Shown: in pieces, positions 9,977 through 64,000 of the stretch
How the letters are laid out: every line of letters begins with the position of its first letter
Position numbering within the stretch: position 1 is the first letter of the stretch
Source: an uncultured Methylophaga sp.
Lineage (GTDB): Bacteria > Pseudomonadota > Gammaproteobacteria > Nitrosococcales > Methylophagaceae
Reading direction: 5' to 3'
Length of the DNA: 64,000 nucleotides
Assembly: GCA_965215665.1 (NCBI GenBank)
Contig: OZ244110.1
Coordinates: 1,627,062 to 1,691,061, forward strand
Position numbers and translations under genes: made by a program
The notes under the pieces: model-generated
The model's input: only the letters and a program-made list of their open reading frames with translations
Database searches by the model: none
What the model was told of the DNA's origin: nothing

Positions 9977-10004
9977 GAAAGAGATGTTTTATTCAAACAA
10001 TCTC
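9977..10004 (-). terminator. Putative riboswitch expression-platform hairpin
   Basis: Minus strand GAGAUUGUUU-GAAU-AAAACAUCUC followed by UUUC; the 5' arm overlaps the aptamer's conserved 3' GGGAG. Short U tract lowers confidence. Confidence 0.55.
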
Positions 10005-10095
10005 CCGGGCTTTTATCCCTCCGTGTAACCTTCGCTGTGAAGGTCGGTCACTCTCGGTCCAGACGTTATTTACATAACCGGAACCCTAGAGACCC
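10001..10095 (-). ncRNA. Guanidine-I (ykkC-yxkD) riboswitch
   Basis: Minus strand contains the diagnostic blocks CUAGGGUUCCG, GUCUGGACCGAGAG, a P2 hairpin ACCUUC/GAAGGU and ACACGGAGGGAUAAAAGCCCGGGAG. Confidence 0.97.
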
Positions 10096-10149
10096 TATTG
10101 CTGTTCTTTTGGTGTGATAAAAACACCTCTAACACGCTATCCCTATCAA

Positions 10150-60169: not shown

Positions 60170-60855
60170 GCGCTGAGCAGGTCAGTGAATTTTTACGCCA
60201 GCACACAGATTTTTTAATCGATCAGCCGGATTTATTGTCCGAACTGGAATTCGAAAACACACCTGAAGGCACCATTTCGCTGGCACAGCGTCAACGTCAG
60301 CAATTACGCCAGAAAAATCAGCATCTGCATGAACAACTGCATGCTTTAATCGATAATGCGCATAGCAATGCTGCATTGCAGCAGAGAGTCCATCAACTCT
60401 GTCTGCGACTAATGGACTGTCAGGATATGCACAGCCTGCTGGCAACGCTGATGCAACAATTACAGCAAGAATTCTCGGCTGACGAAGTGTCGCTAAGACT
60501 GTTTTACAGTGGCGATCAAAAACCGAAATTACCGCCAGTCGAAGGCAACATCGTCGAAATGCATGCTGATGACAGCCAACTGAAAGCATTTGATCATATT
60601 CTGGGCAAGCAGCTACCGGTTTGTGGCCGACTGACCAAAGCGCAGAAACAATTACTGTTCGGTGAAAAAGCCGATGAAGTGCATTCGGTGGCCTGTTTAC
60701 CATTAGGACACGAGCCCTGTGCCGGTTTACTGGCAATTGCCAGCAGTGATGCCAACCGCTTTCATGCCGATATGGGCACTGAATATCTGAGCTTTCTCGG
60801 CGAAGTGTTTATGCGTCTGCTGCGCCGTTTCTGCCACGGCCAGAATGACAGCTGA
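60145..60855 (+). CDS. DUF484 (YigA) family protein
   Basis: [32 protein letters not shown]; canonical dapF-yigA-xerC order. Confidence 0.9.
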
Positions 60856-61753
60856 TCTGCAAACACCTCTGCAGGATTTTCTGCAGTATCTGGAGCAACA
60901 GCGCCGGGTTTCGCCGCATACCGTACTCAATTATCAGCGTGATTGTCAGCAATTAATTGAATACTGCCAGCAACAATCCTTTACCGATTGGCAACAACTT
61001 AAACCGGCAGATATTCGTCTGTTTATTGCCCGGCTGCATCGTAAAGGTCTGGGCGCTCGCAGTATTCACCGTTTACTGTCCGCCGTTCGCAGTTTTTATC
61101 GTTATTTGCTCAAAGAAGGCCTGGTCGATCATAATCCAGCGCAATCAGTGCAGGCACCCAAAGCCGAAAAGCGTTTACCGAAAACCCTTGACGTCGACCA
61201 AATGAATTCATTACTTGATAGCACACCGGCTGACACTTTTGTCGCCTGTCGCGATCGAGCGATTATGGAATTATTTTATTCCTCCGGCCTGCGGCTGGCA
61301 GAGCTGGCAGCATTGGATTTACGTGATGTCGATTTTGGCCAGCAGCTGGTGCATGTCATTGCCGGTAAAGGTAATAAAGGAAGAATTTTGCCGATTGGCC
61401 GTACCGCGATTGAGGCACTGAAAGTCTGGCTCGATAAACGTGATCAGAACGGTCTGTATCAACAACCAGCATTGTTTACTACGCAGCAAGGCAAGCGCCT
61501 TGGTGTACGTTCCATCCAGCAACGACTGGCTTTCTGGGGCAAAAAACACGGTATCTCCGAACATGTGCATCCGCATCGGCTACGGCATGCATTTGCCTCG
61601 CATATGCTGGAATCCAGCAGTGACTTGAGAGCCGTGCAGGAGTTGTTGGGACACTCGGATATCAGCACAACGCAAGTCTATACCCATCTGGATTTTCTGC
61701 ACCTGGCGAAGGTTTATGATGCCGCACATCCTCGGGCTAAGAAGCGTTCTTGA
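60845..61753 (+). CDS. xerC: Chromosomal tyrosine recombinase XerC
   Basis: SPHT..NY.RD, RLPKTL, RDRAIMELFYSSGLR..EL, GKGNK.R, HPHRLRHAFASHMLE, VQELLGH, TQVYTH. Confidence 0.96.
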   Translation: MTADLQTPLQDFLQYLEQQRRVSPHTVLNYQRDCQQLIEYCQQQSFTDWQQLKPADIRLFIARLHRKGLGARSIHRLLSAVRSFYRYLLKEGLVDHNPAQSVQAPKAEKRLPKTLDVDQMNSLLDSTPADTFVACRDRAIMELFYSSGLRLAELAALDLRDVDFGQQLVHVIAGKGNKGRILPIGRTAIEALKVWLDKRDQNGLYQQPALFTTQQGKRLGVRSIQQRLAFWGKKHGISEHVHPHRLRHAFASHMLESSSDLRAVQELLGHSDISTTQVYTHLDFLHLAKVYDAAHPRAKKRS

Positions 61754-61894
61754 GATATTAACCACAGAGGCACAGAGGGCACTGAGAGTTAAAAGCGATT
61801 TATCCGCAGATTTTTGATAAATAGCTTTTAGCAAAAGATCATTAACTAAATACCAAAGTTCGCTAAATCAAATCAGATTGAAATGTGATTTTCC

Positions 61895-61926
61895 GTAGGT
61901 TGGCGCTGAGCCTGCGAAGCCCAACA
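61895..61926 (+). repeat. GTAG-tagged REP-like hairpin
   Basis: GTAG followed by GTTGG...CTGAGCCTGCGAAG...CCAAC imperfect palindrome. Confidence 0.65.
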
Positions 61927-61942
61927 TCCCCATGACATACCT

Positions 61943-62212
61943 CAGAGGCTTCCCCCGCTTTTTTTGTGCTGACGAGTAGCGCAGGTTTATCTGGATAAGG
62001 ATTGGACAGTGTCTGATTTGTGGCATCCATGCCTTTCACCCTTCGGGCGCCTTCGGCGTCCAAATTTGTTCCAGACAAATTTGTGAGCACAGCGAGTTTT
62101 GACCAATCCCCAGATAAATCGAGCAACGCAGTGGAGCCGCAGGCCAGCACAAGGGGTGCCCTTGGGTTGTTAGGGGCTTGGGCACGCAAGCCCCTGACTC
62201 GCGAGAGCGAAA
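61943..62212 (+). repeat. Structured repeat motif, copy A
   Basis: CAGAGGCTTCCC...TGTGCTG...long hairpin...GCGAGTTTT...GGAGCCGCAGGCCAGCACAAGGGGTGCC...AGGGGCTT-GGGCACGC-AAGCCCCT...TCGC-GAGA-GCGAAA. Confidence 0.7.
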
Positions 62213-62249
62213 GATCAGCTTAAATAGGCAAAATGAACTTAAAGCATAA

Positions 62250-62458
62250 TTTCGCCTGAGGGCGAGTTCATTTTCTTTGCTTGCCCAAAGAAAACGAACC
62301 AAAAGAAAAGGCACCCCTTGTGTTGGCCTGCGGCTCCCCGAAAAAAATGGCCATCGCAGGGAAATCGAAAAAACTCGCTTCGCTCAAACATTCCGATTTC
62401 TAATCCTGCGATGGCCATTTTTTCCGGCAACACAAAAGGGATTCAAGGGAAGCCTCTG
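62250..62458 (-). repeat. Structured repeat motif, copy B (inverted, diverged)
   Basis: Minus strand CAGAGGCTTCCC...TGTGTTG...long hairpin...GCGAGTTTT...GGAGCCGCAGGCCAACACAAGGGGTGCC...TTTTCTTT-GGGCAAGC-AAAGAAAA...TCGCC-CTCA-GGCGAAA. Confidence 0.7.
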
Positions 62459-62582
62459 GGATCTGTGCCCTTTTCTAAATCCTTTCTTAACTTCTATCTA
62501 AAAATCTGCGCCCATCTGCGTAATCTGCGGATAAATTTTAAGAACCTCCGTGCCCTCTGTGCCTCTGTGGTTAATAATCCAA

Positions 62583-64000
62583 CTAATGCGCCTGTTCCCA
62601 ATTATCCCCAACTCCAATCCCAACTTCTAACGGCACTTCGAGATCAGCAGCTTGAATCATAAATTGCTCAATTTCGGTTTTAGCCAAATCAAGCTGATCT
62701 TCTGGCACTTCAAATACCAATTCATCATGCACCTGCATGATCATGCGAATACCGGTATCGGCTTCGAGCAGCCAGTCATGAATCGAAATCATTGCGCGTT
62801 TGATAATATCCGCAGCGCTGCCCTGCATTGGCGCGTTAATCGCGGTGCGTTCGGCATATTGGCGGCGCAGGCCGTTGCTGGAGTTGATTTCCGGCAAATA
62901 TAACCGTCGGCCGAAAATGGTTTCGACGTACCCGTCTTTCTTGGCCTGTTCGCGGGTATTGTCCATGTATTTTCTGACGCCGGGATAGCGTTCGAAATAG
63001 GTTTCCATATATTTGGCGGCCTGATGACGTTCGATGCCAAGTTGTTTGGAAAGTCCGTGGGCTGACATGCCGTAAATCAAACCGAAGTTGATGGCTTTGG
63101 CACTGCGTCGTTGATCGCCGGTGACATTTTCGGGTTCCACACCAAAGATTTCAGAAGCGGTATGGCGATGAATATCTTCACCTTCGGCGAATGCGGTCAG
63201 CAGGCTTTTATCGCCGGATAAATGCGCCATGATGCGTAATTCAATTTGTGAGTAATCGGCTGCCAGGATCTTGGCGCCTTTACCGGCAACAAACGCTTCA
63301 CGAATCTTGCGGCCGGTTTCAGTACGGATCGGGATATTCTGTAAATTCGGATCGGAAGATGATAACCGGCCGGTAGCAGTGACAGCCTGATGATAGGAGG
63401 TGTGCACACGGCCAGTCTGTTGATTGACCTGCTGTGGCAGTTTGTCGGTGTAGGTGGATTTGAGCTTACTTAAGCTGCGATATTGCATAATGATTTGTGG
63501 CAGCTCATAGCCATCATCCGCCAGTTCCTGCAACACATTTTCAGCGGTCGAGGGTTGGCCTTTGGGTGTTTTTTTACGTACCGGCAACTGTTGCTGGTCG
63601 TAAAGAATTTCCTGTAGCTGCTTTGGTGAACCCAAATTGAATTTGGTACCGGCAGAGGCATGGGCTTCTTTTTCTAGCCGATCAATATCCAACGCCAGTT
63701 GATCGCTCTGCTGCTGCAACATAAAGATATCAATATGCACGCCATTACGTTCCAGCGTGTTGAGCACCGGCAGCAACGGCATTTCCAGTTCACGATAAAC
63801 TATTTCCAATGATGGAATCGCCTGCACTTTTGGCCACAAAATATGGTGCAGCTGCAAGGTGATATCGGCATCTTCGCAGGCATAAGGTGAAGCTTCTTCC
63901 AGACCAATTTCATTGAAGGTCAGTTGTTTTTTGCCTTTACCGGCAATGTCTTCAAAATGAATGGTGCTGCGATTCAGATATTTTTCGGCCAGCGAATCCA
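62583..64000 (-). CDS. polA: DNA polymerase I, C-terminal part (5' part outside the window)
   Basis: [48 protein letters not shown]; frame stays open to the window edge (DSLAEKYL...[10 protein letters not shown]). Confidence 0.99.

What the first reader, a model, noticed from the sequence alone, without database searches (positions are those of the whole stretch)
61943..62458. Two diverged, inverted copies of a structured non-coding motif with compensatory base changes
Copy A (61943-62212, +) and copy B (62250-62458, -) share block order: CAGAGGCTTCCC; a TGTGYTG/CARCACA stem; a long variable hairpin whose loop holds GAGCnnAGCGAGTTTT; GGAGCCGCAGGC; GGGGTGCC; a hairpin with a GGGCA(C/A)GC loop; and a terminal TCGC-N4-GCGAAA hairpin. 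Stems covary: a C-G pair in A (TGTGCTG/CAGCACA) is U-A in B (TGTGTTG/CAACACA); the GGGCAnGC loop is closed by AGGGGCTT/AAGCCCCT in A but TTTTCTTT/AAAGAAAA in B; the long hairpin arms are unrelated in sequence but pair in both. Conserved loops with swapped stems indicate selection on RNA or ssDNA structure. Each copy is co-oriented with its flanking gene (xerC, polA). I cannot match it to a named family; candidates are a substrate for an HUH/RAYT-type nuclease, a non-autonomous mobile RNA/DNA, or a 3'-UTR structured ncRNA.
Basis: partly seen in the sequence, partly recalled or inferred. Interest (0 to 1): 0.78.

Follow-up and report, generated by a model that had tools for sequence, protein, structure and literature searches.

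The report
Widespread folded repeat with triple-helix pseudoknot
The two inverted copies are real members of a large, uncatalogued family of about 205-base non-coding repeats found in many bacterial phyla, whose single strand folds into a conserved shape ending in a pseudoknot with a three-stranded helix; what the fold does is still unknown.

Summary
Observation confirmed and extended. Copies A (61949-62218, +) and B (62242-62452, -) are two of ten copies in this 2.97-Mb genome, which is probably a Methylophaga-like gammaproteobacterium. A covariance model built from seven copies finds 1-16 copies in each of the 24 other genus genomes searched. It also finds full-length copies in Burkholderiales, Xanthomonadales, Desulfobacterota, Nitrospirota, Bacteroidota and Clostridia, and in 42 of 251 sampled Pseudomonadota genomes. 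No Rfam 15 family matches.

The fold has two enclosing helices and a long variable hairpin capped by the invariant UGUYUGA-GC-GNA-GC-GAGUU. It ends in an H-type pseudoknot. On 61 distinct copies, 95.5% of cells are paired and 45 of 57 pairs change on both sides. The U-rich linker of the pseudoknot mirrors the stem strand (U opposite A-U, C opposite G-C, G opposite U-A), which indicates an 8-9-layer triple helix.

Copies usually sit as diverged head-to-head doublets between convergent genes. The tail-to-tail A/B pair is an exception and lies in a segment that is inverted in two relatives. The genome has no reverse transcriptase or TnpB, and no recurrent neighbouring gene was found.

The element acts as a folded single strand, RNA or ssDNA; which one is unresolved. 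Closest published relatives are BoxC/PIT intrastrand-triplex repeats and the extended TwoAYGGAY elements.

The parts
61949..62218 (+). Module A (whole unit as matched by covariance model R1; carries the G-rich version of the 3' hairpin)
   Evidence: L001:1515-1784 +, 93 bits, E 6e-21, model 1-210, not in the training set
62242..62452 (-). Module B (whole unit; U/A-rich version of the 3' hairpin)
   Evidence: L001:1808-2018 -, 203.5 bits; fold z = -6.95
61952..61955 (+). A: 5' strand of outer enclosing helix P0 (CCCC), pairs with GGGG 62153-62156
   Evidence: MFE fold; helix 1 covaries CG/GC in A3
61965..61971 (+). A: 5' strand of P1 (TGTGCTG), pairs with CAGCACA 62145-62151
   Evidence: replaced by TATTGCC/GGCAATA in copy E and ATGC/GCAT in type-2 copies
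62012..62079 (+). A: nested 68-70-nt mini-insert with two C(UUCG)G hairpins, at the foot of the apical motif
   Evidence: second copy inside module C; absent in another strain (joint 62013->62084, skips 70); same site occupied in 7 of 61 copies
62084..62100 (+). A: apical motif TGAGCACAGCGAGTTTT (family consensus TGTYTGA-GC-GNA-GC-GAGTT)
   Evidence: motif occurs only in the modules in this genome; the exact pattern is in more than 120 species records
62133..62144 (+). A: junction GGAGCCGCAGGC holding a CC-GCA-GG mini-hairpin
   Evidence: helix 7 (GC/CG swap in 22 copies)
62157..62161 (+). A: pseudoknot strand S1a (TGCCC), pairs with loop GGGCA 62180-62184
   Evidence: helix 8, 97.8% paired, UA->CG and CG->UA/GC swaps; more than 8 sequence versions across phyla
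62161..62198 (+). A: linker L1 (CTTGGGTT), stem S2a GTTAGGGGCTTG, loop, stem S2b CAAGCCCCTGAC
   Evidence: compatible with a purine-motif triplex, but not discriminating
62199..62212 (+). A: terminal hairpin P4 TCGC-GAGA-GCGA followed by AA
   Evidence: stem and loop vary, base TCG/CGA kept
62250..62265 (-). B: terminal hairpin P4; read on the + strand it is followed by a T-rich tract (terminator-like)
   Evidence: terminator-like site 62251-62266 +
62266..62309 (-). B: triple-helix domain: L1 TTTTCTTTTG (62300-62309), S2a GTTCGTTTTCTTTG (62286-62299), loop GGCAAG (62280-62285), S2b CAAAGAAAATGAAC (62266-62279)
   Evidence: L1 mirrors S2a: UUUCUUUU beside AAAGAAAA, 9 of 10 in the parallel register; family statistics
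62310..62313 (-). B: pseudoknot strand S1a (TGCC), pairs with GGCA of the loop at 62282-62285
62338..62427 (-). B: long hairpin P2 (23-bp arms, bulge GGATTAG 62400-62406, apical motif 62370-62390)
   Evidence: inverted repeat I5, 96% complementary
61756..61812 (.). Left arm of the outer inverted repeat that brackets the A/B pair (another repeat family)
   Evidence: I1/I8; about 15 hits in the genome
62492..62576 (.). Right arm of the outer inverted repeat; the DNA between the arms is inverted in G001 and G003
   Evidence: flanks collinear, 61962-62561 matches in reverse
61895..61924 (-). REP-type hairpin TTGGGCTTCGCAGGCTCAGCGCCAACCTAC just upstream of A (separate element)
   Evidence: genome 1688956-1688985; the same REP family flanks a Y1 transposase gene at genome 2733254-2733583

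Best explanation
A and B are two copies of a non-autonomous, dispersed repeat module of about 205 nt. The family is present throughout the genus and, in recognisably the same architecture, in several bacterial phyla.

What is selected is the fold of one strand. Two enclosing helices (P0, P1) close a long hairpin whose arms are free to vary. The tip of that hairpin (UGUYUGA-GC-GNA-GC-GAGUU) and a bulge (GGAUNAG) are conserved. Directly behind the closure lies an H-type pseudoknot. Its U-rich first loop runs in the major groove of an A.U-rich 13-bp stem and forms 8-9 base triples. A small terminal hairpin follows.

Shown here: the family and its spread, the helices, the pseudoknot, the three-strand covariation, the strand specificity, and the doublet habit.

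Inferred: the modules spread, singly or as diverged head-to-head doublets, into gaps between convergent genes, using host or trans-acting functions. There the outer edges stop incoming transcription. The triplex pseudoknot acts as a very stable mechanical block to 3'-5' exonucleases, helicases or polymerases. It would work like the 3' triple helices of MALAT1/PAN when the module is made as RNA by read-through. I rate RNA slightly above ssDNA as the active form.

The tail-to-tail A/B arrangement is a local rearrangement inside a segment bracketed by 57-85-bp inverted repeats.
For: Family:
- There are ten copies in the genome, all in inverted pairs.
- Each of the 24 other genus genomes searched has 1-16 copies, against 0 of 16 genomes of the neighbouring genera sampled.
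- Full-length matches of 50-118 bits occur in Variovorax, Polaromonas, Ralstonia, Stenotrophomonas, Salinisphaera, Desulfo- and Nitrospirales MAGs, Parabacteroides, Flavobacterium and Clostridia.
- 42 of 251 Pseudomonadota genomes have a match.

Fold:
- 95.5% of cells are paired against 27-46% when partners are slid. 45 of 57 pairs change on both sides, and no shuffle of 500 reaches the observed values.
- The pseudoknot is kept through TGCCC/GGGCA, TGTC/GACA, TGGCC/GGCCA, CGGCC/GGCCG, TCGCC/GGCGA, TTGAC/GTCAA, GGGAC/GTCCC and others.

Triplex:
- Among 54 distinct linker/stem combinations the mirror register beats the antiparallel one 30 to 10.
- U in the purine strand faces G in 25 of 25 cases, and G faces C in 37 of 59.
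- There are 470 rule matches, against 405.5 +/- 5.9 when the linker letters are shuffled.

Strand: G.U 217 against A.C 27.

Setting:
- 4 of 5 loci lie between convergent genes.
- Doublets are 24 divergent against 3 convergent.
- A terminator-like site sits at the outer edge.
- In stranded S. maltophilia RNA-seq, the depth of the incoming strand falls about 4- to 9-fold at a module's outer edge (bin means 61-96 down to 10-23).
- Contigs from RNA runs cover A and B.

Non-autonomous:
- No ORF and no promoter-like site above chance.
- No recurrent neighbouring protein in 120 loci.
- No TnpB and no reverse transcriptase in the complete genome.
Against: - No function was measured. Depth over the modules in RNA-seq is about that of the flanks, and multi-copy mapping blurs it.
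- In the usual head-to-head doublet, a transcript entering from outside meets the antisense of a module first and may stop there. The sense RNA may therefore rarely be made.
- No promoter was found.
- Several features fit DNA at least as well: GC-GNA-GC mini-hairpins, the G opposite T-A rule, and a G-rich variant of the stem (copy A) that as a triplex would be of the purine type, reported not to form in RNA (cited in PMC4666352).
- Ends, target duplication and the mobilising enzyme were not found.
- The alignments used for counting were fitted to the model's structure.
Confidence: 0.5

Rival explanations
1. The active form is single-stranded DNA. The module would be an intrastrand-triplex DNA repeat of the BoxC/PIT kind that folds when the strand is exposed during replication, repair or transfer. 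It would then be recognised or moved by a single-strand-specific enzyme such as a REP-associated tyrosine (HUH) transposase, or it would stall polymerases. The doublet guarantees that one module always lies on the exposed strand.
For: - The three-tract order (Hoogsteen tract, pyrimidine tract, purine tract) and the rule T.A-T, C.G-C, G.T-A are those of DNA pyrimidine-motif triplexes (PMC4666352).
- The G-rich variant in copy A fits a purine-motif triplex, which is DNA only.
- GC-GNA-GC is, to my knowledge, the classic hyperstable DNA mini-hairpin.
- There is no promoter.
- Heterotypic inverted pairs are also reported for E. coli TM_ECO (PMC4666352).
- 12 of about 30 REP hairpins of the genome lie beside modules, and a Y1 transposase gene is flanked by the same REPs.
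- Segments holding the modules are inverted or reshuffled between close relatives.
Against: - The REP hairpins are separable from the modules: G009 has the same doublet with only 16 nt between the modules and no REP there.
- None of the three Y1 genes has modules nearby; only the flanks of the two at 797-800 kb were compared with the genome.
- The nested insert carries two C(UUCG)G loops, a motif that is special in RNA.
- The region is transcribed.
- For E. coli PIT elements no in vivo effect was found in the functional tests that PMC4666352 summarises from Hoyne and Maher 2002.
- The test on the G-rich variant does not discriminate orientation.
Confidence: 0.3
2. A trans-acting small RNA family, for example a sponge or scaffold for a conserved RNA-binding protein. 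The invariant hairpin tip and the GGA-containing bulge would be the binding sites, and the triplex pseudoknot a protective 3' cap.
For: - Loop and bulge sequences are conserved across phyla while the stems vary.
- The architecture resembles the extended TwoAYGGAY elements: basal stem, apical hairpin(s), 3' pseudoknot and divergent doublets (bioRxiv 10.64898/2026.09.22.753630).
Against: - No promoter or discrete abundant transcript was seen.
- Copy number ranges from 1 to 16 within one genus, and locations change. That pattern fits a selfish repeat better than a regulator.
- No recurrent partner gene was found.
Confidence: 0.1
3. A self-cleaving or otherwise catalytic RNA carried by a mobile element (one of the first reader's suggestions).
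For: A compact pseudoknotted fold with invariant unpaired nucleotides, spread widely without a fixed gene partner, as is seen for several ribozyme classes.
Against: - No match to any ribozyme family in Rfam at E up to 1.
- RNA-run contigs run through the modules without a common break.
- Nothing suggests an active site.
Confidence: 0.05
4. No selected structure: ordinary palindromic junk kept complementary by DNA-level processes (templated repair in hairpins, gene conversion between copies).
For: The copies are related by descent, so counts over copies overstate independent events. The alignments were fitted to the structure.
Against: - The same architecture persists with unrelated stem sequences in different phyla.
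- The pseudoknot and the third-strand rule cannot be kept by hairpin-templated repair.
- The G.U excess shows that one strand matters.
Confidence: 0.03

Closest known systems
Extended TwoAYGGAY elements of Pseudomonadota (Rfam RF01731 core; extension described in bioRxiv 10.64898/2026.09.22.753630, Sept 2026)
   Same: [quoted passage not shown] Copy number varies strongly between strains. Units are frequently in doublets that are mostly divergent (68% there; 24 of 27 here). Both are associated with REP arrays.
   Different: The defining two hairpins with AYGGAY terminal loops are absent. Here there is one long hairpin with a different invariant tip. RF01731 matches neither the window (E up to 1) nor the genome and 20 relatives. 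The preprint does not mention a triple helix.
BoxC / PIT / TM_ECO intrastrand-triplex DNA repeats (Hoyne et al. 2000; Holder et al. 2015, PMC4666352)
   Same: Three consecutive tracts on one strand that can fold back twice into a triplex. The repeats are intergenic and multi-copy, and numbers differ between strains. Inverted pairs always join two different subtypes. Flanks are unstable, and the function is unknown.
   Different: TM_ECO is a 34-37-nt G/C-rich purine-motif unit (CCCTCNCCC..GGGNGAGGG..GGGNGAGGG). Here the triplex is mostly U.A-U, sits inside a pseudoknot, and is only the 3' quarter of a 205-nt conserved fold. There is no sequence match in 5,426 E. coli genomes.
Triple-helix pseudoknots and 3' triple helices in RNA (telomerase RNA, SAM-II/preQ1-II riboswitches; MALAT1, PAN ENE)
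   Same: H-type topology with a U-rich loop in the major groove of an A.U-rich stem, as in telomerase RNA and SAM-II. There is a run of U.A-U triples interrupted by C.G-C, and the A-rich strand lies near the 3' end, as in MALAT1/ENE (from my knowledge of these structures).
   Different: There is no template, ligand pocket or ENE-type double U-rich internal loop, and no poly(A) tail. The helix would have 8-9 triples, longer than in riboswitches, and the element is a dispersed repeat. Resemblance of fold only; nothing here tests function.
REP / BIME / REPIN elements with RAYT transposases
   Same: Intergenic, often between convergent genes. Units alternate in orientation and doublets are a preferred unit. 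A RAYT-type gene flanked by REPs exists in this genome.
   Different: REPs are 20-40-nt simple palindromes with a GTAG head. The module is about 205 nt with long-range helices, a pseudoknot and conserved loops. The REP hairpins beside it are separate insertions.

Membership tests
Any Rfam 15 family | Covariance-model match | tested here: not met
   There is no match at E up to 1 over 61000-63500 except a chance RydC-like hit inside polA. Nothing in this region reaches gathering score in a scan of the whole window. Nothing matches the modules in 17 loci from other phyla.
TwoAYGGAY (RF01731) | [quoted passage not shown] | tested here: not met
   No RF01731 match in the window or in the own genome plus 20 relatives (the control genomes were silent too). 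By eye there is one long hairpin with a single YGGAU in an internal bulge.
TwoAYGGAY, extended form (2026 preprint) | Elongated basal stem, 3' pseudoknot, divergent doublets, REP association | tested here: met
   P0/P1 and the pseudoknot covary. Doublets are 24 divergent against 3 convergent. REP hairpins lie beside modules. These are shared habits, not the defining loops.
Intrastrand triplex motif (PIT/ITM class, Holder 2015) | Hoogsteen tract, pyrimidine tract and purine tract in order on one strand, obeying triplet rules | tested here: met
   Mirror register beats antiparallel 30 to 10. U faces G in 25 of 25 cases and G faces C in 37 of 59. Shuffle control. Folding itself is not testable with these tools.
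BoxC / TM_ECO | Consensus CCCTCNCCC-N3-6-GGGNGAGGG-N3-GGGNGAGGG | tested here: not met
   The sequences differ, and there is no blastn match in E. coli genomes.
REP/REPIN | 20-40-nt palindrome with conserved GTAG head; the family flanks a RAYT gene | tested here: not met
   The module is about 205 nt and none lies near the three Y1 genes; only the flanks of the two at 797-800 kb were compared with the genome. A true REP family (..CCCAACCTAC) does exist and flanks the Y1 gene at 2733254.
MITE | Terminal inverted repeats, target-site duplication, cognate transposase | tested here: inconclusive
   A doublet resembles a 0.5-kb element with 200-bp imperfect inverted ends. No clean empty site, duplication or transposase was found.
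IS200/IS605 guide RNA (omega/reRNA of TnpB or IscB) | Adjacent or genomic TnpB/IscB gene; scaffold at the element end | tested here: not met
   PF07282 is absent from the complete genome while the control genomes ring. No such ORF lies near 120 loci.
Retron / other RT-dependent ncRNA or retroelement | Reverse transcriptase in the genome | tested here: not met
   PF00078 is absent from G000, G003, G007 and G009, which hold 10-16 modules each.
ENE/MALAT1-type 3' triple helix | U-rich internal loop clamping a 3' A-rich tract; protects the RNA 3' end | not testable with these tools
   Only the triplet pattern can be read from sequence. The topology here is an H-type pseudoknot, not an ENE clamp.

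The most novel reading that the evidence does not exclude
The module defines a cross-phylum class of bacterial structured nucleic acid. Its hallmark would be a self-contained pseudoknot with the longest natural U.A-U/C.G-C/G.U-A triple helix known in bacteria. The same position can hold a pyrimidine-type or a purine-type version. The fold would act as a portable block that protects transcript 3' ends, or stalls helicases and polymerases, wherever the repeat lands. That would make it a bacterial counterpart of the MALAT1/PAN triple helix carried by a mobile element.
Probability: 0.3. Interest if true: 0.85.

Novelty: new variant of a known kind. Interest (0 to 1): 0.66.

Why it matters
A 205-nt fold conserved from Gammaproteobacteria to Bacteroidota and Clostridia is present in roughly one in six sampled Pseudomonadota genomes. 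It is nevertheless absent from Rfam and unannotated in the public records checked here. That is a sizeable gap in bacterial genome annotation.

The three-strand covariation gives a concrete, testable structure: a long triple helix inside a pseudoknot. In bacteria such helices are, to my knowledge, known only in short form inside riboswitches and group II introns. At the DNA level they are known as the unexplained BoxC/PIT repeats.

The finding links two separate literatures, intrastrand-triplex DNA repeats and TwoAYGGAY-like RNA repeats. It also offers natural sequence pairs with which to test whether RNA or DNA is the active form.

Practically, these repeats mark rearrangement-prone gaps. Their shadow ORFs are likely to be mis-called as small hypothetical proteins, and the domain could serve as a compact stability or insulation module.

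Tried and rejected
- **Cyanobacterial origin.** This was my first guess from the flanking repeats. The lysA-dapF-yigA-xerC synteny rejects it.
- **TnpB/IscB guide RNA.** No TnpB in the genome.
- **Retroelement or retron.** No reverse transcriptase.
- **Rfam.** Three scans, no family; RF01731 searched separately.
- **Conserved neighbouring gene.** All-against-all BLAST of 1,385 ORFs around 120 loci gave only shadow ORFs and generic two-component systems.
- **Autonomous element between widely spaced inverted copies.** No transposase was found.
- **Literature search by the literal loop sequence and by MITE keywords.** Nothing relevant.
- **Annotated collections.** No features under the matches in plasmid and megaplasmid records. 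No match in phages or E. coli.
- **Empty sites from public DNA runs.** Assembly contigs break at the repeats, so no clean ends were obtained.
- **Comparison of the xthA-recQ gap across the genus.** It shows presence/absence and opposite orientation of the doublet, but no exact empty site in a close relative.
- **Alternative pairing of the loop with sequence after the stem (GCCC).** Not consistent across copies.
- **Pairing of the upstream UUCCC with GGGAA in the junction.** Inconsistent across copies, so not claimed.
- **Link between the Y1 transposase genes at 797-800 kb and the modules.** None.
- **Purine-motif triplex in copy A's stem.** Compatible, but too short and symmetric to test.
Full report
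**1. The observation**

The region 61700-62700 lies between the stop of xerC (60845-61753, +) and the stop of polA (62583-..., -).

Both copies fold much better than dinucleotide shuffles, with z = -3.75 for A and -6.95 for B. No Rfam 15 family matches at E up to 1.

**2. It is a family**

BLAST and pattern searches of the whole 2.97-Mb genome found ten copies, all in inverted pairs:
- A/B, tail to tail;
- C/I, G/H, D/E and J/F, head to head.

Once a nested insert is removed from A and C, all copies are 203-216 nt long.

I built covariance model R1 from seven copies. It recovered the three copies left out of training (A, C, D) at 93-144 bits. It found 1-16 copies in each of the 24 other genus genomes searched, and none in 16 genomes of other genera in the order and class.

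The organism is a marine gammaproteobacterium. The evidence is the lysA-dapF-yigA-xerC synteny and its holders among seawater and algae metagenomes. The best outside match is a record titled Methylophaga, so I take the genus to be Methylophaga. That is an inference.

**3. The family is not confined to the genus**

I estimated about 35 chance hits.

R1 matches the full length (positions 1-210) in the following groups:
- Variovorax, Polaromonas, Ralstonia, Undibacterium and Extensimonas;
- Stenotrophomonas, Luteimonas, Salinisphaera and Arenicellales;
- Desulfurivibrio and Desulfuromonadales MAGs and a Nitrospirales MAG;
- Parabacteroides, Flavobacterium and other Bacteroidota;
- Gastranaerophilales, Sporomusaceae and Clostridia MAGs.

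In an even sample of the phylum, 42 of 251 genomes and 25 of 151 genera have a match at E <= 1e-6. This used a model trained on one genus and strict filters, so it is a lower bound.

None of 17 such loci has an Rfam match on the modules. The matches in plasmid and megaplasmid records, including R. pseudosolanacearum GMI1000, carry no annotation. There is no match in phages or in 5,426 E. coli genomes.

**4. The fold**

I counted pairs on 61 distinct genus copies aligned to the model. This is a caveat, because the alignment leans towards the structure.
- 95.5% of cells form standard pairs, against 27-46% when the partners are slid by 1-3 columns.
- 45 of 57 pairs change on both sides.
- None of 500 shuffles reaches the observed values.

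The helices are:
- P0 (CCCC/GGGG, also CCCG/CGGG and GCCC/GGGC);
- P1 (TGTGYTG/CARCACA, TATTGCC/GGCAATA, ATGC/GCAT);
- a long hairpin whose arms are unrelated between subtypes;
- a mini-hairpin GC-GNA-GC at the tip, which becomes CC-GAA-GG in two copies;
- a CC-GCA-GG mini-hairpin in the junction;
- a 12-14-bp 3' hairpin.

The loop of the 3' hairpin pairs with the four or five letters that follow P0. In the genus this pseudoknot is kept through TGCCC/GGGCA, TGTC/GACA, TGGCC/GGCCA, CGGCC/GGCCG and CGCCC/GGGCG (helix 8). Across phyla it is also kept through TCGCC/GGCGA, CGACC/GGTCG, GGGAC/GTCCC, TTGAC/GTCAA, CTTGAT/ATCAAG, TGTG/CACA and GCGCG/CGCGC.

G.U pairs outnumber A.C 217 to 27, so the fold is selected on the sense strand only.

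**5. The triple helix**

The 3' domain has the order S1a, linker L1, S2a, S1b, S2b, which is a classical H-type pseudoknot. L1 is not a direct repeat of S2a but its mirror image. It therefore runs parallel to the purine strand S2b, with U beside A-U, C beside G-C and G beside U-A.

| Copy | L1 | S2b |
|---|---|---|
| B | UUUCUUUU | AAAGAAAA |
| F | UUUUCUUU | AAAAGAAA |
| H | UUUUGUUU | AAAAUAAA |
| Salinisphaera | UUUGUGUU | AAAUAUAA |
| a betaproteobacterial MAG | UUCUCUUU | AAGAGAAA |

The statistics are:
- Over 54 distinct U-rich combinations, the mirror register beats the antiparallel one 30 to 10, with 14 ties.
- Every U that interrupts the purine strand faces a G (25 of 25).
- G faces C in 37 of 59 cases.
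- Shuffling the letters of L1 lowers the rule matches from 470 to 405.5 +/- 5.9.

A Watson-Crick alternative would need the opposite polarity, so it is excluded for the asymmetric cases. This is the signature of an 8-9-layer major-groove triple helix.

Copy A and 18 other genus copies (12 distinct versions in all) carry a G-rich stem instead (GTTAGGGG../..CCCCTGAC, linker CTTGGGTT). That version is compatible with a purine-type triplex but too short and symmetric to test.

I reached this reading before consulting earlier notes of the scan. Several other agents had described the same core in other genomes.

**6. Setting and dynamics**

- **Position.** Four of the five loci lie between convergent genes.
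- **Neighbours.** They include polA/xerC, xthA/recQ and dinB. I treat this as unexplained rather than meaningful.
- **Orientation.** In the genus loci in hand, doublets are 24 divergent and 3 convergent. The three convergent ones are the xerC-polA locus of this genome and its two nearest relatives. Across phyla the count is 10 divergent, 1 convergent and one tandem triple.
- **Heterotypic pairs.** The partners of a doublet always belong to different subtypes.
- **Locus conservation.** At least one module lies next to polA in 19 of the 25 genus loci that were found, 14 of them with a pair. Orientation and subtypes differ, and one 92%-identical relative lacks any module there.
- **Inversion at xerC-polA.** The DNA between the outer inverted repeats (61756-61812 and 62492-62576) is inverted in G001 and G003.
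- **The xthA-recQ gap.** It is about 20 nt in G006 and filled with modules and REP hairpins here. In G009 it holds the same kind of doublet in the opposite order, with only 16 nt between the modules and no REP there.
- **Nested insert.** A 68-70-nt mini-insert with two C(UUCG)G hairpins occupies the same site in 7 of 61 copies. A relative of this insert also occurs in the 3' loop. It is absent from copy A in another strain.

**7. What it is not**

- It has no ORF, and no promoter-like site above chance.
- No neighbouring protein recurs around 120 loci.
- The complete genome lacks TnpB and reverse transcriptase. It has three Y1 transposase genes. One of them is flanked by a REP family (..CCCAACCTAC, about 30-45 copies), and 12 of those REP copies lie beside modules.
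- The REPs are separable from the modules, and the other two Y1 genes show no link to them.

**8. RNA or DNA?**

Contigs from RNA runs cover A and B and run on into xerC and polA. In stranded raw reads of S. maltophilia, the incoming strand falls about 4- to 9-fold at a module's outer edge (bin means 61-96 down to 10-23). Both strands are seen inside at about flank level, but multi-copy mapping blurs this.

Read on the opposite strand, the terminal hairpin followed by the T-rich stem arm looks like an intrinsic terminator.

Evidence that favours RNA:
- the UUCG loops of the nested insert;
- the transcription seen in the RNA runs;
- the RNA reading of the related TwoAYGGAY family.

Evidence that favours ssDNA:
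- the doublet geometry, in which a transcript from outside meets the antisense of a module first;
- the absence of a promoter;
- the GC-GNA-GC mini-hairpins;
- the G opposite T-A rule;
- the G-rich stem variant;
- the precedent of the BoxC/PIT repeats.

The strand specificity fits either form. I cannot decide, and rate RNA slightly higher.

**9. Comparison with what is known**

Holder et al. 2015 (PMC4666352), building on Hoyne and Maher, described abundant intrastrand-triplex motifs in bacteria. The E. coli BoxC/PIT/TM_ECO unit is intergenic and varies between strains. Its inverted pairs always join type A with type B. It folds as DNA in vitro, its function is unknown, and it is linked to local instability. 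The habits are the same as here, but that unit is a 34-37-nt G-rich motif without the rest of the fold.

A September 2026 preprint (bioRxiv 10.64898/2026.09.22.753630) extends the Rfam TwoAYGGAY motif in Pseudomonadota. It adds a basal stem, extra hairpins and a 3' pseudoknot. It reports 11-23 copies per genome (median), 68% divergent doublets and REP arrays at a fixed position downstream. It says nothing of a triplex.

The module here shares those habits but lacks the defining AYGGAY loops, and RF01731 does not find it. I therefore file it as a new variant of this kind of element, not as a member of either named family.

**10. Verdict**

The inference of structural selection is strongly supported, but the mechanism is not established.

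The fold and the family are shown with high confidence. The proposed role is inference. That role is a dispersed, non-autonomous module whose triplex pseudoknot acts as a stable block at gene ends, as RNA or as ssDNA.

Noticed in passing
61756-61812 and 62492-62576 (window): The A/B pair sits inside an ~820-bp segment bracketed by inverted repeats of another repeat family (TTAACCACAGAGGCACAGAGGGCAC.., about 15 hits in the genome, some also in inverted pairs ~200-500 bp apart). The DNA between the arms is inverted in two related genomes while the xerC and polA flanks stay collinear.
   Followed up: partly
62012-62079 (window); also genome 1616925-1617003 inside module C: A 68-70-nt mini-insert with two C(UUCG)G hairpins. 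It is found only inside modules, always at the foot of the apical motif (7 of 61 genus copies), and a relative of it sits in the 3' loop of a G009 copy. It is absent from copy A in another strain. It looks like a parasite of the repeat, or an optional expansion segment.
   Followed up: partly
window 61895-61924; genome 1617126-1617155, 1617389-1617416, 1621222-1621307, 2733680-2733768 and others: A REP family (TTGGGYTTCG..CAACCCAACCTAC, GTAG head on the other strand) of about 30-45 copies flanks a Y1 (RAYT-type) transposase gene at genome 2733254-2733583. 12 of the 30 listed copies lie directly beside modules, often REP-module-REP in the same orientation.
   Followed up: partly
genome 1615658-1623142 and window 60845-63998: Three of the five module loci adjoin genome-maintenance genes (xerC/polA, xthA/recQ, dinB), and modules are next to polA in most species of the genus. 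This may be a coincidence of convergent gene ends.
   Followed up: no
L077:475-3777 (Bacteroidales MAG): Three nearly identical modules in tandem, about 1.55 kb apart. Each is followed by a different gene: an ORF with a KilA-N-like look, an ORF with a uracil-DNA-glycosylase-like look on the other strand, and an ORF with a DUF1016/YhcG-like look. These names come from reading the translations and were not scanned. The layout is cassette-like, unlike the doublets of Proteobacteria.
   Followed up: no
10000-10100 (window, - strand): Guanidine-I riboswitch, 91 bits against a gathering score of 63.
   Followed up: no
62920-62976 (window, + strand): Weak RydC-like match (26 bits, gathering score 48) inside the polA coding region. 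I take it as chance.
   Followed up: no
all doublets (genome 913164-913589, 1273162-1273663, 1616790-1617367, 1621007-1621521): The two partners of a doublet are always of different subtypes (about 65% alike), as reported for type A/type B pairs of E. coli TM_ECO. This may reflect selection against long perfect palindromes.
   Followed up: no
L141:7031-7777 (Flavobacteriaceae MAG): One module lies about 160 nt downstream of the tmRNA gene, a classic island integration site.
   Followed up: no
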